Positions 17,374 to 36,940 are shown, numbered from the stretch's first letter. The stretch: DNA of 64,000 nt from Candidatus Wolfebacteria bacterium RIFOXYB1_FULL_54_12 (GCA_001793895.1 MGIT01000001.1:106508-170507), one strand, 5' to 3'. The notes: generated from the letters alone by a model not told the origin. Numbers and translations: made by a program.

Positions 17374-19170
17374 CTATTTAGTTGCACTGATTTTAACCCC
17401 TAATTCCGCATACGGCGCCCGCACGGTTATCTTTCCAGTCTTTGGGTCGCGAAGCACGGAATAGCCACTCATTGTTGCCGTTCCCCTGCTCGGGTCCCGC
17501 GGCAATGCGCGCAGATACCACGGCGCAAGGCAAGACTCGATGGCATATCCGCTCGTACCCAGAACCTTTGCAGTCGTCGGCAACGGTCCGGCAGAACAAG
17601 TAAATGCGCCGTCGTTATCGGCTTCGTTTTTCTTGATGGCGTTGGTGATCGCTTCGACATCAAAACTCCTGCGGGCGTTGCGCTCCAGCGCGGTCTTCGG
17701 CGCGGGGATGCGCGCATCGCCGCCAAGCATCTGCGTGAACAACGATTGCAAAGCGCTATCGATCGATCGCGCATCTTCCGGAGGGAAAATGTCCACAGGC
17801 TTATCGAAGCTGTTACCGGTAAGCGTTACCAGAACGCTCGCACTGCGCGCGCTGTCTTGCGGATCAATCGCAATGTGCATCTGCACTTTGCGTGGCGCCC
17901 CGCCAAGTTTCCCGATCCACACGTGCAAATCATCAATGGCGACGTTGGATAGCATGTCTCGCGCTTCCGGTGAACCATTTTTTTCAAGCCAACGAATAAA
18001 AGCTTCCTTATCGAACGCAAGCACATAGTGCCGCGATGAAACACCGTCAATGACCTCGTCTGCCAATGTACTTTGCACGGTCAAAAATCGATGTTCTTTC
18101 CATGCGGCAATACTCGTACTGCGCTCCTGCTTTGAAAGCCACGGCACAAGCCCACTCGCAGGATCCGTAGGTGATCCAAACTGTTCATGCGCATCTTTGT
18201 CCGACACCATGAACCACTGTTGCTGCAATGCGCTCAAGTTGAGAAACCCAAGGCTGGGCATGGCCGTTATATTTACATAACTGACCCGGTCGATATTGTT
18301 ATAAATAAATCCAAGCGTCGCTTCGCCCACGGCCCACTTGTCCATGGTCGATACGGCGGTAAAGGCCAACCGAGGATCGCCTTCTTGCGTTCCGTCAAAA
18401 GAACCGACGATATTTGATGTAAGCGTCGCCGGCCCATCAGCGGCAAACATGCTCACGAACGGCCCTGCGGCTCCCGTCGTTGCGACCAAGCCGGTCTTTG
18501 CATTTGCCATTTCCACCACGATCTCGCTCGCGAACGTAAACGATTCCACGCTATGCAATCGCGACATAGCCCGATCGATATCCCGCTCGGGCGATATGAA
18601 ATAGGCGGCATAAGCAAACCAAATACCCAGCGCCAATACCGCAATGCCAACGATCGCAATGGCGGTAAATGTAATGATTTTTTTCTTGTTGCGAATTTCG
18701 GAAACAGGTTTTTCTGCAACAGCGGAAGCGGTTGCTTTAAAAACAGAGGCTAACGGAGGTTGCTGTATTCCATTGGCAACGGCAAACGGAACGGTAGGCT
18801 GCAAAGGTGGCACAGGGCGGACCACGCCATGCGCTTCCGTGCGTGCAGGCGCAGGCTCAGGCGACGGCACCGTCGGCTTTGTAATAGGAGCAACCGGGAC
18901 TGCTTCTTGTACCACAGGAACAATCGGTCCGGGAGCTGGCGCTGGTTTAGGTGCCGGAGTCGGCTCGGCAACGATCTCAGGGGTTGGGATGGGATCAGCA
19001 ACCACTTCCTTACGCGCCATGCCCGTAACTCCGGGCGATACCAGTTCAAATATCTCGCGTATTTCTGCTTCATCGGTTCCCCTCCTACGCAAAAACTCGC
19101 GGACTTCCGCTTCACTCACCCCTCCACCCAATTGGTTTTTCACCACTTCAATAAGCGCCTGTTGTATCAT
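17374..19170 (-). CDS. Large membrane-anchored hypothetical protein
   Basis: 598 aa. An N-terminal domain shared with 16900..17235, a Pro-rich linker, one TM, then a large extracytoplasmic domain. Confidence 0.45.
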   Translation of the reverse strand: MIQQALIEVVKNQLGGGVSEAEVREFLRRRGTDEAEIREIFELVSPGVTGMARKEVVADPIPTPEIVAEPTPAPKPAPAPGPIVPVVQEAVPVAPITKPTVPSPEPAPARTEAHGVVRPVPPLQPTVPFAVANGIQQPPLASVFKATASAVAEKPVSEIRNKKKIITFTAIAIVGIAVLALGIWFAYAAYFISPERDIDRAMSRLHSVESFTFASEIVVEMANAKTGLVATTGAAGPFVSMFAADGPATLTSNIVGSFDGTQEGDPRLAFTAVSTMDKWAVGEATLGFIYNNIDRVSYVNITAMPSLGFLNLSALQQQWFMVSDKDAHEQFGSPTDPASGLVPWLSKQERSTSIAAWKEHRFLTVQSTLADEVIDGVSSRHYVLAFDKEAFIRWLEKNGSPEARDMLSNVAIDDLHVWIGKLGGAPRKVQMHIAIDPQDSARSASVLVTLTGNSFDKPVDIFPPEDARSIDSALQSLFTQMLGGDARIPAPKTALERNARRSFDVEAITNAIKKNEADNDGAFTCSAGPLPTTAKVLGTSGYAIESCLAPWYLRALPRDPSRGTATMSGYSVLRDPKTGKITVRAPYAELGVKISATK

Positions 19171-19408: not shown

Positions 19409-21829
19409 CTAATAAGTCGAATAGGCGTAGTCAAACACGGCATGAGCTACTGTCTCTAAACTTTTAGCACTACATTTATCGAGCGTATCGCCAGTCGTAT
19501 GATATGGCGGGTATTCAAAATCAATCAACAGGAAACTCGGAATTCCAGCTCGATTGAGCGGGGTGTGATCATCTTGGACACTTTGCCCAACCTTATCTTG
19601 AAAAACGTGGCTGTCCACTTTTTGCGCAATACTCCAAAATGCGTCCGCTTGAGACTGGGCATTTTGCACGGATGATTGCTCCTTGTAAATTCTCAAGTCT
19701 TTATCGCACACCATATCAAGAACAAGTGCGGATACCGGTATATTATTCCCATAAAGTTCGCTCAAATGTTCGGAAAAATAAGTAGAACCGAGAGGTCTCC
19801 AATTGCTATAATCACTGCCTTGATTTATATCTCCCTCTTCTCCATCAAAGAAAACGATGTCCACGCCAACACTCGGTATCACATGAGAATTGCCGAGTAT
19901 CCGCGCTAATTCCACAAGGACGGCAACACCCGAAGCAGAGTCGTTGCCCCCTGGCACTGGTTGATCTTTGTATACGTGATCCTTATCCGCAAGTTTTTTA
20001 CTGTCATAATGTGTCGCTAAAATAATGCGCCGTTCTTGGGTTGGGTATAGACGGCCTATGATATTCGATAATTTATGGATTTTACCGTCTGTCCCTTTGT
20101 AATCCCACGATTGTGTAATTACTTCGTTGGTTTGTTCTTTCATCTCCGCAATTAGAAATTTCTGCACGTTTTCATGCCCGGGTGCGCTCATGTGGCGCGG
20201 CCCATACCTTAGTTGTTGGTTTATCACGGCAAGCATTTCGTTGCCATCAATAAACGGTTTTTCCTTAAAAGTACGCCGGAGAACTTCGGACGTTAAGTAC
20301 TCAACCGGAGAAAAATTGTCGGTGAGAATTGGGTATGGAGACAAATTAAATCTGTCCAAGTTGATAACTTTATTTCGAAGCGAGCTAATGATTGAGTTCT
20401 CATTTTGCAGAATTGAAGCCGCGCTCAAATCAATTTTTTTATTACCATTCCATCCAACCAAAATAATATTTTGGGAATCTGTTTTTCCGGGAGTTTCAAC
20501 CGCAAAAAAATAACTATTTGGAAAAACACTTTGAAAAGTTTTTATCTCCGCAAAAATAAGAGATGGCTCTTGTCTTGATAAATCTCCGATTAAATTAGCG
20601 ATAAACAATCCATCGTCAGATAATTTCTCTTTTGCGATGGTAAAAAATTCCTGCGTTGTAAAGTGAGCAGGAATGGAAAAAAGAGAATGGTACGCATCGC
20701 TAAATATAAAATCATATTTTTTATTCGAATCCCAAAGCAGGCGACGACCATCTTCAGTATAATTGTATAGATTTGAATTGTCTTCTACGGCAAAATATTC
20801 TTTTGCTAATGCCAATAACGATGGTTCAATTTCTGAAACATCGAGTGTCGCGTTTGGCAACTCCGCTAAAAGGGCCTTCGGTATAGAATATGCGCCACCG
20901 CCTATAACTAAAGCATTTCGTACGTCCGGCTTGAAAACTTTGTAGAGAGAATAGTATTTCGTGTATTCATAAACGAGATCGGCCGGGTTATCCGAATCGA
21001 GAAACATCGCACCGGAACCACTCCGATCCTGTTGAAAAAATCTTGTCGGCCTGCTTTCAAACATACCATCGTAGATGGTGATTTTTTCGTAAATACCATC
21101 TTTGCTGTACAATACATCGCCTTTTGTTTGCTGAACCGCAACAATGGTAATAAGGGCTAAAGTGACAACGGCAACCAAAGACTGGGTTAGGCGTTTTTTG
21201 TCAAAACCAAATACCGTAAGTGGGATAAATCCGAGAAGGAAGAGAACAACTCCTGTGGCAATAAAAATATGGTCTATGCCAAAATTAGGTATAAGCACAA
21301 AACCCGCAAGTAGACTGCCAATGATACTCCCCAGAGTAGACCAAAAAAATATTTTACCCGAAACACTTCCCACTCCCTGCTCTGGTGCTTGAAGACTCTG
21401 TAATTTTATAGCATAGGGCGACAAAGTGCCGAGCAATAACGCAGGAACAAGGAACAGCAGCAAAGAAGAGATCAGTGGTCCGCTTGTAAGTGAAAGATTT
21501 TTGCTTAAAATTGGAAGAATTATCAAACCAAAAAAATGAAATACAAGGACAAGAAGACCGCTTACGAGAATTATCCCGAAGAACCACCGTAACGATGGGT
21601 GACGATCTGCAAATTTTCCGCCCACATAATATCCTATGCTAAGAGCTGCGAGTATAACACTTATTATACTTGATACAGTAAAAATTGTGTTTCCATAGTG
21701 AGGCGAAAGGACACGGACGGCAACGACTTCAATAATCAAAACACACGCCCCAGTGATAAATACTGAGATTGGCAGCAAATTTTGCTTTAAAAATTTGTTC
21801 ATGTATTTAATCATGGTAGCAGTTTGCAT
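19409..21829 (-). CDS. Fusion protein of three parts: a polytopic membrane domain, a spermidine-synthase-like (PABS-fold) domain and an M28-family peptidase domain
   Basis: About 200 aa of N-terminal TM helices. The PABS-like core (LVIGGGAYSIPKALL...DAYHSLFSIPAHFTTQEFF...DDGLFIANL). C-terminal M28 motifs (HYDS...GGNDSASGVAVLVELARIL...DIVFFDGEEG). Confidence 0.55.
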   Translation of the reverse strand: MQTATMIKYMNKFLKQNLLPISVFITGACVLIIEVVAVRVLSPHYGNTIFTVSSIISVILAALSIGYYVGGKFADRHPSLRWFFGIILVSGLLVLVFHFFGLIILPILSKNLSLTSGPLISSLLLFLVPALLLGTLSPYAIKLQSLQAPEQGVGSVSGKIFFWSTLGSIIGSLLAGFVLIPNFGIDHIFIATGVVLFLLGFIPLTVFGFDKKRLTQSLVAVVTLALITIVAVQQTKGDVLYSKDGIYEKITIYDGMFESRPTRFFQQDRSGSGAMFLDSDNPADLVYEYTKYYSLYKVFKPDVRNALVIGGGAYSIPKALLAELPNATLDVSEIEPSLLALAKEYFAVEDNSNLYNYTEDGRRLLWDSNKKYDFIFSDAYHSLFSIPAHFTTQEFFTIAKEKLSDDGLFIANLIGDLSRQEPSLIFAEIKTFQSVFPNSYFFAVETPGKTDSQNIILVGWNGNKKIDLSAASILQNENSIISSLRNKVINLDRFNLSPYPILTDNFSPVEYLTSEVLRRTFKEKPFIDGNEMLAVINQQLRYGPRHMSAPGHENVQKFLIAEMKEQTNEVITQSWDYKGTDGKIHKLSNIIGRLYPTQERRIILATHYDSKKLADKDHVYKDQPVPGGNDSASGVAVLVELARILGNSHVIPSVGVDIVFFDGEEGDINQGSDYSNWRPLGSTYFSEHLSELYGNNIPVSALVLDMVCDKDLRIYKEQSSVQNAQSQADAFWSIAQKVDSHVFQDKVGQSVQDDHTPLNRAGIPSFLLIDFEYPPYHTTGDTLDKCSAKSLETVAHAVFDYAYSTY

Positions 21830-21897
21830 ATGATTAGTCTATCCGCCATTGTATTTTTTAAGCGAGGACTATTTTCAAAATATTTCACAAAAACAAA

Positions 21898-21930
21898 GAC
21901 CACGCATTTTAATGCATGGTTTTTGTTTTT
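21898..21930. terminator. Intrinsic terminator hairpin (copy 2), abutting the tRNA-Ala 3' end
   Basis: ACCACGCATTttAATGCATGGTttttgtttttgtgg. Confidence 0.55.
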
Positions 21931-21931
21931 G

Positions 21932-22002
21932 TGGACCTAGGCGGAATCGGACCGCCGTCTCAGCAATGCGAATGCCGTGTTCTACCACTAGACTATAGGC
22001 CC
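21932..22002 (-). tRNA. tRNA-Ala (anticodon CGC)
   Basis: Reverse complement GGGCCTATAGTCTAGTGGTAGAACACGGCATTCGCATTGCTGAGACGGCGGTCCGATTCCGCCTAGGTCCA. A G3:U70 identity pair, A73, anticodon loop TTCGCAT. One D-stem mismatch and C55 in the T-loop lower confidence. Confidence 0.65.
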
Positions 22003-27817: not shown

Positions 27818-28432
27818 TTATATGATGATGCTTGTCAGGCTTAATGCGGCAATAATGTATCCGGTCGATACAAGCGCGATTGCATACCCGATAAAAAACG
27901 GCAGGCCGAGCGCCGTATATGCTTCGCGCAAAAAAATGTCACGAATGAGGCTGATGACGACCACAGACAAAAACACGGCCGGCACGAACACCACAAAATG
28001 CGGCCACCCGACAACAAGTGCCAGCAACGCCCCAAGTTCCACTTCGCCTTCTTCAAAATAACGCGGATTATGCGCTCGCAACGCGCGCAGTACCGCAAAA
28101 AACAGCAAGGCCGCACCGATGGACACGATCGCGTTGAGCCAAAAATGGGTCCAACTGTAGTGCAACAGAACGGCAACGCTTTGATGTGGCGGCAGAAAAA
28201 ATCGCGTAAGTTCGGTTCGCATCCATGCATAATATTGCAATGCCGTTCGCACCCCCGCGAACAATAATCGAAAGACCGCGACGCCGAATGCAAATCGCAA
28301 GAATATGCGCCGTCTATCCGCCATTGGCCTGTAATACATAACGCATACCGCAATGGCAACCGCAAAAAGAGCGCCGGTGCGCACCCAATCGATCGAAGAA
28401 GAGAATAGAAACTGTAAAAATGATTCGCGCAT
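27818..28432 (-). CDS. Polytopic membrane protein, possibly a divergent A24 prepilin-peptidase-like protein
   Basis: 6-7 TM helices. EEGEVELGALLALVVGWP resembles the GGGDVKL...GW motif of prepilin peptidases with D-to-E changes. Weak. Confidence 0.3.
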   Translation of the reverse strand: MRESFLQFLFSSSIDWVRTGALFAVAIAVCVMYYRPMADRRRIFLRFAFGVAVFRLLFAGVRTALQYYAWMRTELTRFFLPPHQSVAVLLHYSWTHFWLNAIVSIGAALLFFAVLRALRAHNPRYFEEGEVELGALLALVVGWPHFVVFVPAVFLSVVVISLIRDIFLREAYTALGLPFFIGYAIALVSTGYIIAALSLTSIII

Positions 28433-29009: not shown

Positions 29010-29019
29010 GTATTGTTTA

Positions 29020-29095
29020 TAATCTCTGTCATTCCCGCGGAGGCGGGAATCTATTTAATACTGGATTCCCGCCTCCGCGGGAATGACAACCTTTC
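29020..29095. repeat. Palindromic hairpin repeat pair, identical to 15468-15530
   Basis: Sequence gtcattcccgcggaggcgggaatctatttaatactggattcccgcctccgcgggaatgac. Confidence 0.85.
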
Positions 29096-29106
29096 TGATT
29101 CACTTA

Positions 29107-30858
29107 TTACAAATCCCCCTTCTCGCTCTTGTGTGGTTGCTTTGGTCGTTCTTCGGGGGTAGCTTCTTTTCTTTTTTGTAATGATTCTTCGATTGCCTTT
29201 TTCAGGTCATCAATATTGACCGCCTTTTTCTCGAACACATGTTTTGGCCTATCCTGCGGCATACTGCGAAGTCTATCGTCCATCGCTGGGCGATGCGGCA
29301 CAGGGCTGGCGCCACGATCTCCGCTAAATGGCCGCACGCTCGTCGGCCTATCGGTCAACGGCCCGTCCTGGGATGCCCGCGCAAACGACGGTCTGTCCTG
29401 CCTGCCCGCCGTAGTGTTAGCGGAGGAGGAATCCGCCGGCTGGCGGACGAAGGGTTTACGCTCGAAAGAAGGCTTCGGCGCTTGCGCACGAGGGGTTAGA
29501 GTCGAGCTCAACGACCGCTCGTCACGGCGCATAACCTTATCTGCCATGGATGTCTTACCCGACCCCATATATTCCTTGGCGATCATTTCATCCACCAACG
29601 CCTTAGGCATGGAATAATTTCTGCGGGAGTTTTCAATAATGACATCCTCGTAATTCGGCTGCGGGATTGGATACGGCGGCAAGGTCTCTGCCGAAAATGG
29701 TCTCGATGCCTGGCCGTCAACCAACAATTTAAGGTAAATATGCCGGTTTGACAAGCCGATCATATCTTGCGGCGTAAACTCGGGTTCGAATTCCTTTTCA
29801 AAAAATACGGCGTCGATGGCGCCAACGCGAAACATAGCCAAGGTGCCAATGTTGCCGACGATTGCCTCTGCAAGCCCTTCTTCTTTTTTAAGCTGATCGA
29901 CATACTGGTGGGCCAGCGTCAAGCCAAGTCCGTATTTGCGCGCCTCGGCGAAGATCTTCGTAAATGAACCGGTAGAAAAGTTTTGAAACTCGTCGATGTA
30001 CAAAAAGAACGGCCTGCGTTCGCTCTCGGGAATATCGATGCGGCTCATGGCGGCAAGCTGGATTTTGGTAATGATCATGGCGCCGAGCAATGCGGAATTG
30101 TCTTCGCCGAGACGGCCCTGCGAAAGATTGCAGATCAATATCTTGCCTTCATCCATTGCCTTGCGCATGTCGATGGTCGACTTCGGCTGGCCGATGATGT
30201 TACGGATGACCGGATTGGAACTGAACTGCCCTACCTTGTTCTGCAACGGTGCAATGGCCTCGGTCATGAACTTGTCGGTATATTTTGCAAATTCGTTTTC
30301 CCAGAACGACTTAATGACCGGGTCCTTTAAATTGGAAACGACCTTCAGGCGGTACTCTTTCTCCGCAAGCATGCGCATAATACTCAGTAAGGTCGTTCCC
30401 GGATATTCCAAAAGCGCCAACAGGGTATTGTTCAAAATATATTCCATGCGCGCAGACCATGCGTCCACCCAGATTTTTTGAAACACACCCATCACCGCCG
30501 ACGCGACAAGGTGCGCATGTTCGTCACCGACGCGTTCAAGCGGATTAAATCCGACCGGATTTTCGATATCGGCCGGATTGACATAAATGACATCCTTGAT
30601 GCGGTCTTCTGGCACATGCTTAAGCAACTCTTCGACGAATTCGCCATGCGGGTCGAGCACGGCAACACCAAATCCGTTCTTGATGTCGTTGATCATCAAG
30701 TTTTTCATCATGGTGGTCTTACCCGTGCCGCTCTTCCCGACGATGTACATATGCCGCAGGCGGTCGTTCATTTTGATGCCAAAATTAACGCTTTGATTGC
30801 GAAAATTCGTCTTTGCAAAAATTGAAATTTCTTTGTTGCTCATAGGGCTATTTGTCAT
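29107..30858 (-). CDS. P-loop ATPase of the TraD/VirD4/HerA (type IV coupling protein-like / DUF87) type, with a long disordered C-terminal tail
   Basis: Walker A (IVGKSGTGKTT) followed by VLDPHGE. Walker B (FFLYIDEFQNF). GLTLAHQ. The last 190 aa are low-complexity P/S/R/D-rich. Confidence 0.5.
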   Translation of the reverse strand: MTNSPMSNKEISIFAKTNFRNQSVNFGIKMNDRLRHMYIVGKSGTGKTTMMKNLMINDIKNGFGVAVLDPHGEFVEELLKHVPEDRIKDVIYVNPADIENPVGFNPLERVGDEHAHLVASAVMGVFQKIWVDAWSARMEYILNNTLLALLEYPGTTLLSIMRMLAEKEYRLKVVSNLKDPVIKSFWENEFAKYTDKFMTEAIAPLQNKVGQFSSNPVIRNIIGQPKSTIDMRKAMDEGKILICNLSQGRLGEDNSALLGAMIITKIQLAAMSRIDIPESERRPFFLYIDEFQNFSTGSFTKIFAEARKYGLGLTLAHQYVDQLKKEEGLAEAIVGNIGTLAMFRVGAIDAVFFEKEFEPEFTPQDMIGLSNRHIYLKLLVDGQASRPFSAETLPPYPIPQPNYEDVIIENSRRNYSMPKALVDEMIAKEYMGSGKTSMADKVMRRDERSLSSTLTPRAQAPKPSFERKPFVRQPADSSSANTTAGRQDRPSFARASQDGPLTDRPTSVRPFSGDRGASPVPHRPAMDDRLRSMPQDRPKHVFEKKAVNIDDLKKAIEESLQKRKEATPEERPKQPHKSEKGDL

Positions 30859-30970
30859 TCCGAATTTATTTCGGAATCTCGTGGTAAAATGCCAAGATCC
30901 TGTATCCGTCAGCCGACGAACGGAAGGATCTGTTTTGCATTGTCATACCGGCGGGTGAGGGCCTGTCCTC
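30850..30970. repeat. Palindromic hairpin repeats
   Basis: Sequence tgtcattccgaatttatttcggaatc ... gatcctgtatccgtcagccgacgaacggaaggatc ... attgtcataccggcgggtgagggc. Confidence 0.7.
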
Positions 30971-31029
30971 GACCTGATCGGGGACCTGTCAATTTCGTGC
31001 GATACGCACACCATAATAATGCATTCTAA

Positions 31030-31117
31030 TTCCGTTATCCGTTATCGGTCATCCGTTTTCGTTTTCGGTTATAGGTTATTAGTTGTAGGTTTTAGGTTAT
31101 TGGTTATCAGTCATTGG
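31030..31117. repeat. Tandem (CCGTTAT)/(GGTTAT)n repeat array abutting the stop codon of 31118..32461
   Basis: Sequence ccgttatccgttatcggtcatccgttttcgttttcggttataggttattagttgtaggttttaggttattggttatcagtcattggttattc. Confidence 0.8.
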
Positions 31118-32461
31118 TTATTCTATCGGCAAATTCTCCGGAGGCTCGCCTTTCTTTGCCTCGATACGGCGCATACTCGGCGCGGTAACCAACGATGACG
31201 GAACATGGTAAAGCGTAGCCAACTCTTCTATGGAAAAGACGGGAGCCTTCTTTATCATGATCCGCTGGCGGTATGCAAAGAACATTGCCCTCTTTTTCAA
31301 AAATTCCTGATGCTTTTTCCACGCCGGAAACAGCCATGCCTTGAAACCTTTCGGCGGGTTTACCGACGTATCCCTGTTTGGCTTGAACGAATTGATATGC
31401 TGGGAACCGAATTGCTTGAATGAGCCGATGATCCCCCCTATATAGGACTTATGAAACGTTTCCTGCCGATCGATAAACACTGCACGCACGCTCACTTCAT
31501 AGCACAGTTTGGATATTTTTCCTTCAATGCCTTCAAGTACTTCCTTTTCAGAAAAGCTCAAAGACGCAATCGTCTTGGGTGGAGCGTCGGATTTTTTCGG
31601 CGGCTCGGGCCATTCCGGAGTGCTTATGAATACAAGAAAAAAATTCTTGATCCACATGACAAGATGATCAAATATGCTCAATTTAGGAGCGACCTTCACC
31701 TCACGGCCTAACATTTTATCGACGATCGCCTGTCCCTTCTTTTTGTAGTCGCTCGTTTTTTCGCCGGTCGGCTTGGATATATATTGCACGAAGATCATTT
31801 CATTCTCGCGGAGCTTCGACATGGTTTCCAAAATGACCGTAAGCGGATCAAGTCGTTGCTCTTCCTCTTTCTCTTCAAAATAGGCGTATGTCTTAATCGG
31901 ATATGCGCTGTCTTTGTCGAGAACCATATCGACGCCCCATACATCATAAACATCGTTGGGCAACATCATCGGCAAGAAGCTGAGATAGTCTTCGACAAGG
32001 GCTATTTCCGCGGCGGGATATTGCGCAAACAATGCGGACTCCACCAAATTGCGGTGCTCGGCAGGTACGCGCACATAAAAATATACACCGCCGCTTCGCC
32101 CGACCATTTCAAACGAAAGGGCGTTTTGAACCTTCCCTTTGATATTTTCATCCCACCATTTGATCTCGCCGGCATAGGTGCCATGTACCGTGGCAAACAC
32201 CTGTTCCATGGATTTCGGACTGCGCAAATTTTCCTTGGGGATGCGCAATTCAAGCACGACCCACTTTTGCGCCTTCTTTGCCGCTTTTTTGTTCGAGTCG
32301 ATGTACAGGTCCCAAAGATAGAACGCCAAAACAACCGGAACGACGGCCCACCATACGTACGAAAAGACCTCGCCAATGCTTTGCGCAATGCCAAGGATGA
32401 TATTCTGCACGACCGGTGTGATCGAAAAATAGTCCAGTAGAAAGTCTGAAATGTTTGCCAT
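31118..32461 (-). CDS. Hypothetical membrane protein (N-terminal TM pair plus a large soluble domain), co-directional and adjacent to the TraD/VirD4-like ATPase
   Basis: 447 aa. TM region VVQNIILGIAQSIGEVFSYVWWAVVPVVLAFYLW. No recognisable motifs. Confidence 0.4.
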   Translation of the reverse strand: MANISDFLLDYFSITPVVQNIILGIAQSIGEVFSYVWWAVVPVVLAFYLWDLYIDSNKKAAKKAQKWVVLELRIPKENLRSPKSMEQVFATVHGTYAGEIKWWDENIKGKVQNALSFEMVGRSGGVYFYVRVPAEHRNLVESALFAQYPAAEIALVEDYLSFLPMMLPNDVYDVWGVDMVLDKDSAYPIKTYAYFEEKEEEQRLDPLTVILETMSKLRENEMIFVQYISKPTGEKTSDYKKKGQAIVDKMLGREVKVAPKLSIFDHLVMWIKNFFLVFISTPEWPEPPKKSDAPPKTIASLSFSEKEVLEGIEGKISKLCYEVSVRAVFIDRQETFHKSYIGGIIGSFKQFGSQHINSFKPNRDTSVNPPKGFKAWLFPAWKKHQEFLKKRAMFFAYRQRIMIKKAPVFSIEELATLYHVPSSLVTAPSMRRIEAKKGEPPENLPIE

Positions 32462-32519
32462 GTATCTCTTTTAGTATATCGCAAAATGGTCCAACAAAAA
32501 AGAGACACTCGTCTCTTTT

Positions 32520-32578
32520 TTGCATTCCGTTATCCGTTATCCGTTTTCGGTTATTGGTTATTGGTTATCCGTTATTTA
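32520..32578. repeat. Tandem (CCGTTAT)/(GGTTAT)n repeat array abutting the stop codon of 32576..33619
   Basis: Sequence ccgttatccgttatccgttttcggttattggttattggttatccgttatttacg. Confidence 0.8.
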
Positions 32579-33619
32579 CGCAACATGATATGTTCCGTTG
32601 TCCAATCGTTTGAAATATTTTTTGTTCTGCAAGTTAAGCAGAATGGTGTTTTCCTTCAAGAATCGCTGAGAGGAAACCAACTGCACGACCTCATGCTGGG
32701 CAAGCGGGCCATTGTCAACAAGCACCTGCTTGATGACGTCCTTTGCCGTACCCGGGAAAAATCCATGCTCGGTCAAACCATACATACCGCGACCTACAAG
32801 GACAAATCGTCCATCCTTGATCAATTCATTATGGATCGTCTGTGCATACACCGGCTTTTTATCGAACCCGACCGAATTGATCGTAGTGGCGATATCGCGG
32901 AAGTGCATCGGCTTGCCATGCTTGCGCAAGATAAGATATGCCTTTGCGCGCGCGGTCTTCGGCGTGATCTCTTCCCAATGGGAAAGACCAAAGTCGGAAT
33001 ACGGATTCACGGAAAACTGTTTCGAGATGCCGAGGTAGTTCATGCCGACGGCGCGGTCGACGTTCGAAGCGGTCGCAACCTGCTTGAAGTGCGGATCGAA
33101 TTGACCCTTGAAGACTATTTCTTCTTTCTTGCCGCCAAAGAACTTGACCGCCTTTTCAATGAAAGTCTCTGCCTTTTTGACGACAGCCTTGTCCGAAGCC
33201 CAAAACCCATAGGAATGATCGCTTTCAGCATGGTACATCGGCTCGCCGGCAATGCGGAAAAGGAAGCGGAACTGATACTTGTTCACGGTCGCATCTTTCA
33301 ACACCGTGCGCATGTCTTCGACAAAATCATCTTCCTTGCGAACGCCGCCCAAGGCAACGAGTTGCTCCTTGGCGATTTGCACCAGGCGATCGCCGCCTGC
33401 ATCGCTAAAACGTTCCCGCGCCAAACGAAGCCCTTCTGCCTCTATCTGGCGCACGCGCTCACGGGTAATGCCGTTGCGTTCGCCGAGTTCCTGCAGGGTC
33501 TTTTCCTGTCCATCGCGAAGTCCAAAACGTTCCTCGACTATTTCTCGCTGTCGAGCGGACAATGCGTGCGTTACCTGTTCGATGATATTGCCTGTGTTCT
33601 TCATAAGAGTTGAATCCAA
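32576..33619 (-). CDS. Sigma-70 region-4-like HTH domain protein fused to a C-terminal domain of unknown function
   Basis: The N-terminus LSARQREIVEERFGL...KTLQELGERNGITRERVRQIEAEGLRLAR is a region-4 HTH. The remaining about 270 aa are unassigned (possible winged-helix/HARE-HTH-like end). Confidence 0.45.
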   Translation of the reverse strand: MDSTLMKNTGNIIEQVTHALSARQREIVEERFGLRDGQEKTLQELGERNGITRERVRQIEAEGLRLARERFSDAGGDRLVQIAKEQLVALGGVRKEDDFVEDMRTVLKDATVNKYQFRFLFRIAGEPMYHAESDHSYGFWASDKAVVKKAETFIEKAVKFFGGKKEEIVFKGQFDPHFKQVATASNVDRAVGMNYLGISKQFSVNPYSDFGLSHWEEITPKTARAKAYLILRKHGKPMHFRDIATTINSVGFDKKPVYAQTIHNELIKDGRFVLVGRGMYGLTEHGFFPGTAKDVIKQVLVDNGPLAQHEVVQLVSSQRFLKENTILLNLQNKKYFKRLDNGTYHVA

Positions 33620-35899: not shown

Positions 35900-36940
35900 T
35901 TACGCCGCCGTAGCGCGGCGCCCCGCGACCACAGCCGCACTAAGAACGCGAATGAATTTGTCGGAAAATACCAACAGTTCGCCCGCAAGGTTCTTGTCGC
36001 TTGCGTCGCGACGGAACGATGAGAGGGAAATCCACGTCCCCTTGTGTTCGTTCATCCACGCCAACGTGCCGGCGCCCTTGCCGATCTTGATGATCGTCAT
36101 CTCGCCACCCTTGCCGATCTTTTTCTGTTCGACAGCGACGAGCGCCGCTCCGGCGCGGAAGACCTTTCCCTTGACCTCCCGATGGGGGAGGTTGAGGACG
36201 TAGGTTCCGACAATGCCTTTCCGCATATTGCCAAGATCGGCCTCTCCACTTTGCAGGATGTGGTCGATCTCGGCCTGCTCGGCCTTGCCGTCGTTTTTCT
36301 TGACAGCGCCGATGAACTTGCGCAACTCCGCTTCGAGCGCGCGTTGCGGGGCACCGGTGTGGACCGACAGATATGCCTTCTTGGCATAGAACAAGGTCCC
36401 CGAGGGGTACTTGTTGTCGGCAACACGGAAAGCCTGCTTCTCGGCATCGGTCGGTTCGCGGAACCGTCCGATCTCCACGGCACGCGCCAGAAAAGCGAGC
36501 GCGTTTTCTGCGCTGGCCACGCCAGAGCGGATCTCTTCAATGAAGAGCGCGAACCGCAAAGACTTCTGCAGCTCTTCATCGCCCGCGCCGAGGATCTTTT
36601 CCTCCTCGGCCTTGAGCTTCTTAAGCTCGGCGACATCACTGGAAGTCAGCATGCCACCACGCTCCTTGACCAGATTGATCTGGAGCTGGCGGGCGCGGAT
36701 CATAATGATCTTCTGCGCCGCCTTTTGGGCATACGCGCTACGCCCGCGCGCTTCCTTGATCTGCTCCTCAATGTCGTCATCACTGACGACCGCCACCTGA
36801 ATGGCGTCGAGGTCGGGCAGAACGGGTTTTACTTTTTCCTTGCTCCTCTTTGCGAGGGCAAGTTCAAACTGCTGGGCAAGCGGGGCGGTAAGTTTCTTGG
36901 TGGGGCCTTGGGGATCGGTTGATGCGGTTGATGCGTTCAT
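35900..36940 (-). CDS. Hypothetical protein in a compositionally distinct GC-rich ORF
   Basis: 346 aa, charged and Ala/Lys/Glu-rich. Local GC is clearly higher than the flanking secD and exonuclease genes. A long antisense shadow ORF (36044..36922) is typical of high-GC DNA. Confidence 0.45.
   Translation of the reverse strand: MNASTASTDPQGPTKKLTAPLAQQFELALAKRSKEKVKPVLPDLDAIQVAVVSDDDIEEQIKEARGRSAYAQKAAQKIIMIRARQLQINLVKERGGMLTSSDVAELKKLKAEEEKILGAGDEELQKSLRFALFIEEIRSGVASAENALAFLARAVEIGRFREPTDAEKQAFRVADNKYPSGTLFYAKKAYLSVHTGAPQRALEAELRKFIGAVKKNDGKAEQAEIDHILQSGEADLGNMRKGIVGTYVLNLPHREVKGKVFRAGAALVAVEQKKIGKGGEMTIIKIGKGAGTLAWMNEHKGTWISLSSFRRDASDKNLAGELLVFSDKFIRVLSAAVVAGRRATAA

What the first reader, a model, noticed from the sequence alone, without database searches (positions are those of the whole stretch)
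29107..32461. Two-gene module: a membrane protein of unknown function plus a TraD/VirD4/HerA-like P-loop ATPase with a long disordered tail
The co-directional genes 32461->31118 and 30858->29107 are separated only by repeat DNA. The ATPase has Walker A (GKSGTGKTT), the DPHGE box, Walker B (LYIDEFQNF) and the GLTLAHQ motif of FtsK/HerA/type-IV-coupling-protein ATPases. It also has a C-terminal tail of about 190 residues that is low-complexity and P/S/R-rich.

The partner protein (447 aa, N-terminal TM helices, large soluble domain) has no recognisable family. In organisms without a full T4SS, such pairs may drive DNA or protein translocation, e.g. DNA uptake or export, or host-cell interaction in episymbionts. 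It is a candidate uncharacterised translocation system.
Basis: partly seen in the sequence, partly recalled or inferred. Interest (0 to 1): 0.6.

Follow-up and report, generated by a model that had tools for sequence, protein, structure and literature searches.

The report
Split type-IV coupling-protein-like ATPase
The two genes are the two halves of one motor protein related to the ATPases of bacterial conjugation (type IV secretion) machines; it is a single chain in other ultra-small bacteria, some phages and actinobacterial plasmids, so it is a split variant of a known but uncharacterised family, not a new transport system.

Summary
The window comes from a Candidatus Wolfebacteria genome (Patescibacteria/CPR).

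The ATPase is a VirD4/TrwB-type coupling-protein (T4CP) homologue with no membrane segment. It has a disordered tail of about 150 aa that carries a conserved C-terminal helix motif.

The pair is a gene fission:
- In a Berkelbacteria protein of 937 aa the two parts are collinear, six residues apart.
- Fused forms also occur in Saccharibacteria, Falkowbacteria, Gottesmanbacteria and Bacillus phage G gp156, and probably in an Embleya plasmid T4SS cluster (weak N-terminal match).
- One PHROG profile covers both halves.

In 76 of 80 species-representative genomes that carry the split form, the ATPase gene directly follows DUF8128, within a conserved housekeeping block (SecDF, a sigma-r4/HARE-HTH protein, the pair, EF-P).

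A 2025 survey already catalogued orphan T4CP homologues in 96% of Patescibacteria genomes. What is new is the VirB4-like N-domain and the split. The substrate, and whether the motor depends on a T4SS, remain unknown.

The parts
31118..32461 (-). Gene for the DUF8128 (PF26449) protein, 447 aa. It is the N-terminal half of the split motor: a membrane anchor plus a cytoplasmic VirB4-like domain (by inference the N-terminal domain).
32306..32368 (-). Single transmembrane helix of the DUF8128 protein (about residues 32-52). Predicted topology is N-out/C-in.
   Evidence: This is the only N-terminal KD19 > 1.6 segment. There are 0 K/R before it and 6 K/R in the 22 residues after it. WWxVxP is nearly invariant in 40 homologues.
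31121..31228 (-). Conserved C-terminal junction peptide of DUF8128 (residues 412-447: EELATLYHVP...AKKGEPPENLPIE). In fused orthologues it runs directly into the ATPase.
   Evidence: E412 E413 L414 A415 T416 H419 P421 P441 P445 are invariant. The peptide aligns to residues 340-383 of the fused protein P0422, whose ATPase part starts at residue 390. The same motif is seen in phage G gp156 and the Embleya T4CP.
30859..31117 (-). Intergenic spacer of 259 nt, unusually long. Its first ~85 nt are heptad repeats (31033-31108). It also holds a weak promoter-like site at 31052-31023.
   Evidence: Sequence. Repeat pattern gives 11 hits against 0.02 expected. The median spacer in 69 relatives is 25 nt. 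Promoter-like site matches 9 of 12 positions.
29107..30858 (-). Gene for the T4CP-like (VirD4/TrwB-type) P-loop ATPase, 583 aa, with no TM segment. It is the C-terminal half of the split motor.
29563..30831 (-). Ordered motor core (residues 10-432): a RecA-like nucleotide-binding domain with an inserted all-helical domain (helices ~112-236). Walker A is at 30712-30738 and Walker B at 29977-30003.
   Evidence: AF2 secondary structure and pLDDT. Motif positions. 53% identity to the fused protein P0422 over residues 10-424. More than 100 invariant columns in 40 homologues.
29224..29559 (-). Disordered, low-complexity R/P/S/K-rich linker (residues 434-545). Its length varies between homologues (whole tail 57-276 aa).
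   Evidence: pLDDT below 50 over 434-451 and 453-545. Composition and length variation.
29179..29229 (-). Conserved C-terminal helix motif KKAVNIDDLKKAIEESL (residues 544-560). It is a candidate docking peptide.
   Evidence: Helix 549-565 with block pLDDT 80. L552 is invariant and L560 nearly invariant. The motif is visible in most of 40 homologues.
32576..33619 (-). Upstream syntenic neighbour: a 347-aa protein with sigma-70 region 4 and HARE-HTH domains. It may belong to the same unit in split-type genomes only, so its membership is uncertain.
   Evidence: PF04545 at 5e-13 and PF05066 at 2e-8. It lies immediately upstream on the same strand in 75 of 80 loci. It is absent beside the fused forms. 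A hairpin with a T-run, read by eye at ~32497-32520, separates it from DUF8128.

Best explanation
The two genes encode the two halves of one VirB4/VirD4-family translocation ATPase that has undergone gene fission in the Paceibacteria (Parcubacteria) lineage.

Proposed mechanism:
1. The DUF8128 protein sits in the cytoplasmic membrane through one N-terminal helix. It exposes a VirB4-like domain (by inference the N-terminal domain) to the cytoplasm.
2. Its conserved C-terminal peptide (EELATxYHxP...KKGEPPxxLP) is the covalent junction in single-chain orthologues. In the split form it most likely docks onto the N-terminal beta-hairpin of the soluble ATPase. This would rebuild a protomer of about 800 aa with the VirB4 domain plan (N-terminal domain plus motor) but a VirD4/TrwB-like motor sequence.
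3. The motor then presumably forms a hexameric ring at the membrane and uses ATP to feed a substrate (DNA or unfolded protein) towards a membrane channel.
4. The variable disordered tail with its conserved terminal helix would recruit a partner or substrate, as T4CP tails do.
5. The most likely channel is the monoderm-type T4SS that most Patescibacteria encode elsewhere, near oriC.

Shown here: domain identities, the fission/fusion relationship, gene adjacency, predicted topology, and T4SS-cluster context of fused relatives.

Inferred: physical docking of the two halves, hexamer formation, the substrate, and coupling to the T4SS.
For: Fission:
- phrog_5156 (824 positions) matches the partner at profile positions 43-313 (E 8e-10) and the ATPase at 392-807 (E 9e-70).
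- The Berkelbacteria protein P0422 (937 aa) aligns to partner residues 32-447 at its residues 9-383, and to ATPase residues 10-424 at its residues 390-801. The gap between the two alignments is 6 residues.
- About 90 of the 120 listed clusters are 725-1142 aa proteins that carry PF26449 together with at least one of PF10412, PF01935, PF02534 or PF12696. They come from Saccharibacteria, Falkowbacteria, Gottesmanbacteria and others.
- Phage G gp156 (825 aa) has an N-terminal part that matches the DUF8128 profile by hhalign (probability 97.9%, E 5e-13). Its C-terminal part is 28% identical to the ATPase.

Adjacency: the ATPase directly follows DUF8128 in 76 of 80 loci, with a median spacer of 25 nt.

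T4CP profile hits are above the Pfam cutoffs.

T4SS context of fused relatives:
- The Embleya plasmid cluster reads TrbL - PrgI - VirB4-like - 812-aa T4CP - Replic_Relax - NlpC/P60.
- In L090 the fused gene lies next to PrgI, a VirB4-like gene and an M23 peptidase.
- Phage G gp155 is VirB4/TraG-like.

Topology: N-out/C-in, which puts the domain in the cytoplasm with the ATPase.
Against: - No T4SS channel, relaxase, pilin or competence gene lies within the 64-kb window or near the pair in the 80 related loci. The context is housekeeping.
- In the published survey only 148 of 5,713 patescibacterial T4CP homologues lie near virB4. T4CP homologues occur in 2,918 of 3,026 assemblies, whereas the VirB4 clade occurs in 2,407. 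The homologue in S. epibionticum was reported as not essential although the T4SS genes are essential (PMC12102498). I did not show that the S. epibionticum homologue is an orthologue of this pair.
- The similarity of DUF8128 to VirB4 is structural only. hhalign against four VirB4/TrsD proteins and PDB sequence searches found nothing. The tools did not print which TrwK residues are aligned.
- All NCBIfam T4CP equivalog scores are far below cutoff.
- Docking of the two halves was not modelled.
Confidence: 0.72

Rival explanations
1. The pair is a T4SS-independent housekeeping translocase. The split motor was exapted from a conjugative T4CP and now does a core cellular job in Paceibacteria. That job could be pumping DNA at the membrane (chromosome segregation or clearance at division, or DNA uptake or export for nucleotide scavenging), or exporting a protein or polymer, without the VirB4 machine.
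For: - Synteny is strictly chromosomal and housekeeping: SecD - SecF - sigma-r4/HARE-HTH - DUF8128 - ATPase - EF-P/MnmA, across many orders.
- The motor is very conserved, 50-65% identity over ~430 residues, which is unlike mobile-element T4CPs.
- T4CP homologues occur in 96% of assemblies against about 80% for VirB4, and the authors themselves raise exaptation.
- A DNA-binding-type protein (HARE-HTH) is the constant upstream neighbour.
- The disordered linker plus motor is reminiscent of FtsK.
Against: - Fused relatives do sit inside or beside T4SS clusters.
- The HARE-HTH and SecDF neighbours are absent beside fused forms, so that synteny may only be inherited gene order.
- ComEC loss does not affect viability in the one genetically tractable Patescibacterium (PMC12857230).
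- I could not test whether this genome has or lacks FtsK or VirB4.
Confidence: 0.25
2. The pair is an anti-phage or anti-plasmid defence ATPase of the HerA/DptH/MADS type, with a membrane-bound sensor partner.
For: - PADLOC hits: mad8 at 2.4e-15, DndH at 1.7e-8, HerA models at 1e-7 or weaker.
Against: - These hits reflect the shared FtsK/HerA-type P-loop fold. T4SS ATPases score almost the same.
- The partner hits no PADLOC model.
- No nuclease, Sir2, methylase or other effector gene is nearby.
- The position is fixed and near-universal among housekeeping genes, which is the opposite of a defence island.
Confidence: 0.03

Closest known systems
VirD4-family type IV coupling proteins (TrwB of R388, PDB 1e9r; TrsK of pGO1; DotL; Cag-beta)
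   Same: - The motor has the same Walker A/B nucleotide-binding domain with an inserted all-helical domain.
- Pfam PF10412, PF02534 and PF12696 score above cutoff.
- A variable C-terminal tail could recruit partners.
- NCBI already names the homologues 'type IV secretion system DNA-binding domain-containing protein'.
   Different: - There is no N-terminal transmembrane domain in the ATPase chain. The anchor is on a separate protein and is followed by a ~380-aa VirB4-like domain that canonical T4CPs lack.
- The gene is not next to a relaxase or to virB4.
- NCBIfam equivalog scores are far below cutoff: 55.9 against 250 for CD1115, and 44 against 366 for TraD.
- hhalign to TrsK gives only 57% probability.
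VirB4 ATPases (TrwK of R388, PDB 7o42/7o43; VirB4 C-terminal domain of Thermoanaerobacter, 4ag5)
   Same: - The overall plan, a non-ATPase N-terminal domain followed by a RecA-like motor, matches the reconstituted pair.
- hhalign of the ATPase profile to pGO1 TrsE gives 86% probability.
   Different: - There is no sequence similarity between DUF8128 and VirB4 N-terminal domains.
- Pfam AAA_10 is below cutoff, and the local Pfam scan returned no family at all for the partner.
- Patescibacteria have a separate, bona fide VirB4.
- VirB4 has no long disordered tail.
Single-chain DUF8128-ATPase proteins: Berkelbacteria P0422, Saccharibacteria P0449, Falkowbacteria P0428, Bacillus phage G gp156 (AEO93416.1), SPO1 gp27.4, Embleya plasmid T4CP WP_331738717.1
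   Same: They are true homologues of both halves, in the same order. The junction motif ELAxxxHxP is conserved.
   Different: - They are one polypeptide.
- Some lack the TM helix (P0484, P0463, gp156).
- Several sit in T4SS-like or phage contexts with a VirB4-like ATPase and/or a Replic_Relax protein.
- They lack the SecDF and HARE-HTH synteny.
- None has been studied experimentally as far as the searchable literature shows. No paper mentions DUF8128.
pGO1 TrsD + TrsE (a VirB4 whose N-terminal part is a separate small protein)
   Same: This is a precedent for a T4SS ATPase whose N-terminal VirB4-like portion is encoded by an adjacent upstream gene (PMC12102498).
   Different: There is no detectable sequence relationship between DUF8128 and TrsD or TrsE. 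TrsD is 227 aa, and TrsE keeps its own ~250-aa N-terminal region.
EccE (with the FtsK-like EccC) of type VII secretion
   Different: The match is much weaker and shorter (117-150 residues). There is no sequence similarity and no ESX genes are present.

Membership tests
VirD4-type T4CP | FtsK/HerA-superfamily nucleotide-binding domain that matches VirD4/TrwB/TraG profiles | tested here: met
   [not shown]
VirD4-type T4CP | All-alpha domain inserted in the nucleotide-binding domain | tested here: inconclusive
   The AF2 model has a helical insert at ~112-236 between strands of the nucleotide-binding domain, and 306 of the 420 TrwB residues align. The per-residue correspondence of the insert was not printed.
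VirD4-type T4CP | N-terminal transmembrane domain in the same polypeptide | tested here: not met
   The ATPase has no hydrophobic window with KD19 above 1.6, and Walker A starts at residue 41. A single TM helix is supplied by the separate DUF8128 protein.
VirD4-type T4CP | Genetic linkage to a relaxase and/or T4SS mating-pair genes | tested here: not met
   None is present in the 64-kb window or beside the pair in 80 loci. Some fused relatives do have this linkage.
VirD4-type T4CP | Score above NCBIfam equivalog cutoffs (CD1115, TraD, TraG) | tested here: not met
   Best score is 55.9 bits against a cutoff of 250.
VirD4-type T4CP | Hexameric ATP-dependent substrate recruitment and translocation | not testable with these tools
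   This needs biochemistry or multimer modelling.
VirB4 | N-terminal domain with the VirB4 N-terminal-domain fold | tested here: met
   [not shown]
VirB4 | Sequence match to VirB4 profiles (CagE_TrbE_VirB, AAA_10, TIGR00929, CD1110) | tested here: not met
   The local Pfam scan returned no family for the partner. For the ATPase, AAA_10 scores 20.9 against a cutoff of 27.5, TIGR00929 scores 17.9 against 643, and CD1110 scores 26 against 325.
DUF8128 (PF26449) | Match to the Pfam model | tested here: inconclusive
   The identical protein P0001 and all 120 listed homologues carry a precomputed PF26449.1 hit. The local Pfam-A copy returned no hit for the window protein, presumably because it lacks that model.
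FtsK/SpoIIIE DNA translocase | FtsK_SpoIIIE motor profile, gamma (KOPS-binding) domain and multi-pass N-terminal membrane domain | tested here: not met
   [not shown]
HerA helicase / HerA-type defence ATPases, DptH | HAS-barrel N-domain and a NurA, Sir2, DUF4297 or dnd partner | tested here: not met
   NF040819 HerA scores 16.2 bits against 970. The PADLOC HerA and DndH hits cover P-loop regions only, and the partner has no hit. No effector gene is nearby.

The most novel reading that the evidence does not exclude
The DUF8128/ATPase motor is not a T4SS accessory at all. It is a near-universal, T4SS-independent membrane translocase of Patescibacteria, descended from a conjugative coupling protein with a VirB4-like N-domain. 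It would perform an essential cell-biological task, such as DNA pumping at division or DNA/nucleotide acquisition from the host. In Paceibacteria it would work with the constantly adjacent sigma-r4/HARE-HTH DNA-binding protein.
Probability: 0.22. Interest if true: 0.7.

Novelty: new variant of a known kind. Interest (0 to 1): 0.42.

Why it matters
Patescibacteria are a very large, mostly uncultured branch of bacteria that live on other cells. Their T4SS is the only secretion machine shown to be essential for that lifestyle.

A 2025 survey found that the T4CP homologue is the most widespread T4SS-like gene in the phylum (96% of genomes). It usually lies far from virB4, and its role is open.

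Three results from this analysis give concrete handles on that question:
- This homologue carries a VirB4-like N-domain (DUF8128).
- The same architecture is probably the coupling protein of at least one actinobacterial plasmid T4SS cluster, and it occurs in Bacillus phages.
- Paceibacteria have split it into an anchor and a motor.

The handles are a defined interface to test (the junction peptide), a candidate docking motif in the tail, and a domain annotation for about 3,500 DUF8128 sequence clusters.

It also hints that VirB4 and VirD4 share more than their motor domain.

Tried and rejected
Negative or unavailable searches:
- Sequence searches of the partner, and of its 40-sequence profile, against the PDB found nothing at E up to 10.
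- hhalign of the DUF8128 profile found no signal against pGO1 TrsD, pGO1 TrsE, the Embleya VirB4-like protein or phage G gp155 (probability below 1%). The VirB4 link therefore rests on predicted structure only.
- The afdb50 fold library was unavailable.
- R388 (BR000038) is not in the plasmid collection.
- tblastn of the partner against phage genomes found no match. Only the profile methods (PHROGs, hhalign) see the phage fusion.
- The literature search for 'DUF8128' returned no papers.

Readings considered and rejected:
- Defence system: PADLOC gives P-loop-level hits only, nothing for the partner, and no effector genes. Rejected.
- Structured RNA in the spacers: Rfam gives only sub-threshold hits, all in the ATPase/EF-P spacer.
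- A pilus, competence or secretion neighbourhood: 25 other window proteins were scanned and gave only housekeeping families or none. Clustering of 785 neighbour proteins from 81 loci found no further conserved partner beyond the sigma-r4/HARE-HTH protein, SecDF, EF-P and MnmA.
- The split as an assembly or frameshift artefact: rejected. There are separate ORFs with their own starts in 76 species, and a 259-nt spacer here.
- The ~205-aa membrane protein near the pair (27818-28432) as a system component: rejected. tblastn detects it in only 1 of 80 loci.
Full report
**1. Observation**

The two ORFs exist exactly as described: 31118-32461(-), 447 aa, and 29107-30858(-), 583 aa. The four ATPase motifs are at residues 41 (GKSGTGKTT), 69 (DPHGE), 286 (LYIDEFQNF) and 312 (GLTLAHQ).

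The window is from Candidatus Wolfebacteria bacterium RIFOXYB1_FULL_54_12. The partner is 100% identical to a protein of that genome.

The partner has a single strongly hydrophobic N-terminal segment, residues ~29-54. There are no K/R before it and 6 K/R just after it. This predicts an N-out/C-in topology with a cytoplasmic soluble domain. The ATPase has no membrane segment.

The 259-nt spacer is about one third heptad repeat (NATAAC[C/G], 31033-31108). That pattern occurs 11 times in the window against 0.02 expected. In 69 relatives the median spacer is only 25 nt.

**2. What the two proteins are**

*The ATPase.*
- It passes the Pfam cutoffs for TrwB_AAD_bind, DUF87/HerA, T4SS-DNA_transf and TraG-D_C.
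- It is far below every NCBIfam equivalog cutoff.
- Its closest solved relative by sequence is TrwB (E 4e-6).
- Its AF2 model has an ordered core to about residue 432, a disordered stretch at 434-545, and a helix at 549-565.
- The motor is very conserved, 50-65% identical across Patescibacteria.
- The tail varies from 57 to 276 aa but nearly always ends in the motif KKxV[ND]I[DE]DLRKAIxESL.

*The partner.*
- It has no hit in the local Pfam, NCBIfam or PADLOC libraries.
- All of its homologues carry the precomputed Pfam family PF26449, DUF8128.
- An exhaustive profile search finds 3,540 clusters (at 50% identity) with E up to 1e-3.
- Its AF2 model is good: pLDDT 81.8, pTM 0.75.
- Foldseek independently ranks five TrwK chains first (E 1e-5 to 3e-3, probability 0.96-1.0).
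- The partner has no P-loop, and its other matches are non-RecA alpha+beta folds. I therefore infer that the match is to the VirB4 N-terminal domain. The tools do not print the aligned range.
- No sequence-level similarity to VirB4 or TrsD was detectable.

**3. The pair is one protein split in two**

- A single PHROG family (phrog_5156, 824 positions) matches the partner at profile positions 43-313 and the ATPase at 392-807.
- Bacillus phage G gp156 (825 aa) has an N-terminal region that matches the DUF8128 profile by hhalign, including the ELAxxxHxP motif (probability 97.9%, E 5e-13). Its C-terminal region is homologous to the ATPase.
- SPO1 gp27.4 is similar but weaker.
- A search seeded with gp156 returns about 90 clusters of 725-1142 aa. 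These carry PF26449 together with at least one of PF10412, PF01935, PF02534 or PF12696. Named sources include Berkelbacteria, Falkowbacteria, Gottesmanbacteria and Saccharibacteria.
- Against the Berkelbacteria protein P0422, partner residues 32-447 align to its residues 9-383, and ATPase residues 10-424 align to its residues 390-801 (53% identity). The two halves therefore abut within six residues.
- The strongly conserved C-terminal peptide of the partner (EELATLYHVP...KKGEPPENLPIE) is the former junction.

The fused form occurs in several CPR classes, in phages and probably in Actinobacteria, and VirB4 itself has this plan. The split form is found with one shared synteny. From this I infer that the fission is the derived state, in the Paceibacteria lineage.

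**4. Co-occurrence and context**

Among the 80 best species-representative loci encoding a split-type DUF8128 (of at least 557 confirmed), counts are as follows:
- 76 have the ATPase immediately downstream on the same strand.
- 75 have a sigma-70-region-4/HARE-HTH protein immediately upstream.
- 54 have SecD and SecF before that.
- EF-P and MnmA often follow.

Three of the four exceptions have NusA downstream instead.

No other conserved neighbour emerged from clustering 785 neighbour proteins. The rest of the window is housekeeping: MreB, MurA, MurB, TyrRS, DnaB, GyrB, LeuRS, PPDK and others. There is no pilin, competence, T4SS channel or relaxase gene.

The sigma-r4/HARE-HTH and SecDF neighbours are absent beside three fused forms. 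That linkage may therefore be inherited gene order rather than function.

**5. Link to type IV secretion**

- In a 996-kb metagenomic contig, the fused gene lies back-to-back with PrgI, VirB4-like and M23-peptidase genes.
- On an Embleya (Streptomycetaceae) plasmid the gene order is TrbL-like, PrgI, XF1762, VirB4-like, an 812-aa T4CP, Replic_Relax, NlpC/P60. The C-terminal half of that T4CP is 31% identical to the window ATPase. Its N-terminal half aligns collinearly but weakly to DUF8128 and includes an ELAALAHLP motif.
- Phage G gp155, just upstream of gp156, is a VirB4/TraG-like ATPase. SPO1 gp27.3, just downstream of gp27.4, is a Replic_Relax protein.
- The architecture therefore appears as the coupling ATPase of at least one monoderm T4SS-type gene cluster.

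This fits the published finding that the patescibacterial T4SS is of the monoderm (MPF-FATA) type. That paper reports 5,713 VirD4-type T4CP homologues in 2,918 of 3,026 assemblies, with only 148 near virB4. VirB4 of the patescibacterial clade occurs in 2,407 assemblies. The paper notes that the homologue of S. epibionticum is not essential and that exaptation cannot be ruled out (PMC12102498). No searchable paper mentions DUF8128.

**6. Mechanism**

*Shown here:* domain identities, the fission, gene adjacency, predicted topology, and the T4SS context of relatives.

*Inferred:*
- The DUF8128 protein anchors the soluble motor to the membrane by docking through the former junction.
- The motor forms a hexamer, like its structural relatives.
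- The motor feeds DNA or protein to a channel, most likely the T4SS encoded elsewhere.
- The tail helix recruits a partner.

*Main rival (about 0.25):* a T4SS-independent housekeeping translocase. It is favoured by the housekeeping synteny, the strong conservation, and a distribution wider than that of VirB4.

A defence role is very unlikely.

**7. Verdict**

The interpretation as a novel two-protein translocation system is only partly right. This is a split member of a large, already catalogued but uncharacterised T4CP-like family.

The modest new points are the VirB4-like fold of DUF8128, the fission, and the conserved tail motif.

Novelty: new variant of a known kind. Interest: 0.42.

Noticed in passing
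window 31033-31108, 32529-32575, 7990-8022 (minus strand): Tandem heptads NATAAC[C/G] sit directly after the stop codons of the DUF8128 gene and the sigma-r4/HARE-HTH gene, and again near tRNA-Pro and tRNA-Phe. The pattern ATAACSNATAAC has 11 hits, all on the minus strand, against 0.02 expected. Function unknown. They could be a protein-binding array or a genome-specific repeat.
   Followed up: partly
window 29012-29108: A palindromic element lies between the ATPase stop and the EF-P start. It hits Rfam WsnRNA46 (39 bits, gathering score 65) and other families on both strands. It contains a GC-rich hairpin, ATTCCCGC-GGAG-GCGGGAAT. It looks like a REP-like or terminator element.
   Followed up: no
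window 30857-30877 (minus strand): A perfect 8-bp hairpin, AUUCCGAA-AUAAA-UUCGGAAU, has a 3' arm that ends in the first two bases of the ATPase start codon. MFE is -8.9 kcal/mol, z = -2.9 against shuffles. It could occlude translation initiation of the ATPase.
   Followed up: partly
window 32576-33619 (-): A 347-aa protein combines sigma-70 region 4 (residues 19-65) with a HARE-HTH domain (226-283). It lies immediately upstream of DUF8128 in 75 of 80 loci but not beside fused forms. Its function is unknown. In this window a hairpin with a T-run, read by eye at ~32497-32520, follows it.
   Followed up: partly
L087 (Bacillus phage SPO1 89200-98180) and L086 (phage G 87999-97321): Large Bacillus phages encode the fused DUF8128-ATPase next to other plasmid- or conjugation-like genes. 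SPO1 gp27.4 sits with gp27.3 (Replic_Relax) and gp27.9 (actin-like ALP/ParM). Phage G gp156 sits with gp155 (a VirB4/TraG-like ATPase). The role of T4SS-like ATPases in these phages is unexplained.
   Followed up: partly
[not shown]
   Followed up: no
L012, L015, L020 (downstream of the DUF8128 match); L059: In three related genomes the DUF8128 gene is followed by NusA, trigger factor and ClpP instead of the ATPase. In L059 about 870 nt with no ORF follows. Whether the ATPase has moved elsewhere or been lost in these genomes was not determined.
   Followed up: partly
window 19409-21829 (-), within the low-GC stretch 20001-22000: An 806-aa ORF combines MFS-like transmembrane, spermine/spermidine-synthase-like and M28 peptidase domains. 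It lies in the only markedly low-GC segment of the window, 0.398 against about 0.50.
   Followed up: no
window 17374-19170 (-) and 35900-36940 (-): Two sizeable ORFs (598 aa and 346 aa) have no significant Pfam family. The 346-aa ORF lies just upstream of SecD but is not conserved in the 80 related loci.
   Followed up: no
L091 (Sulfitobacter mediterraneus plasmid NZ_CP081110.1, 99994-101181): The closest plasmid relative of the ATPase (40% identity over 393 aa) is a stand-alone 395-aa ATPase core in an alphaproteobacterial plasmid. It has no DUF8128 part and is flanked by transposases. It may be a horizontally transferred fragment.
   Followed up: no
window 31118-32461 (-), residues ~261-279: A second hydrophobic stretch (LSIFDHLVMWIKNFFLVFIS, KD19 > 1.6) lies inside the soluble domain of the DUF8128 protein. 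It is modelled as a helix of moderate confidence. It could be a membrane-associating or interface helix.
   Followed up: no
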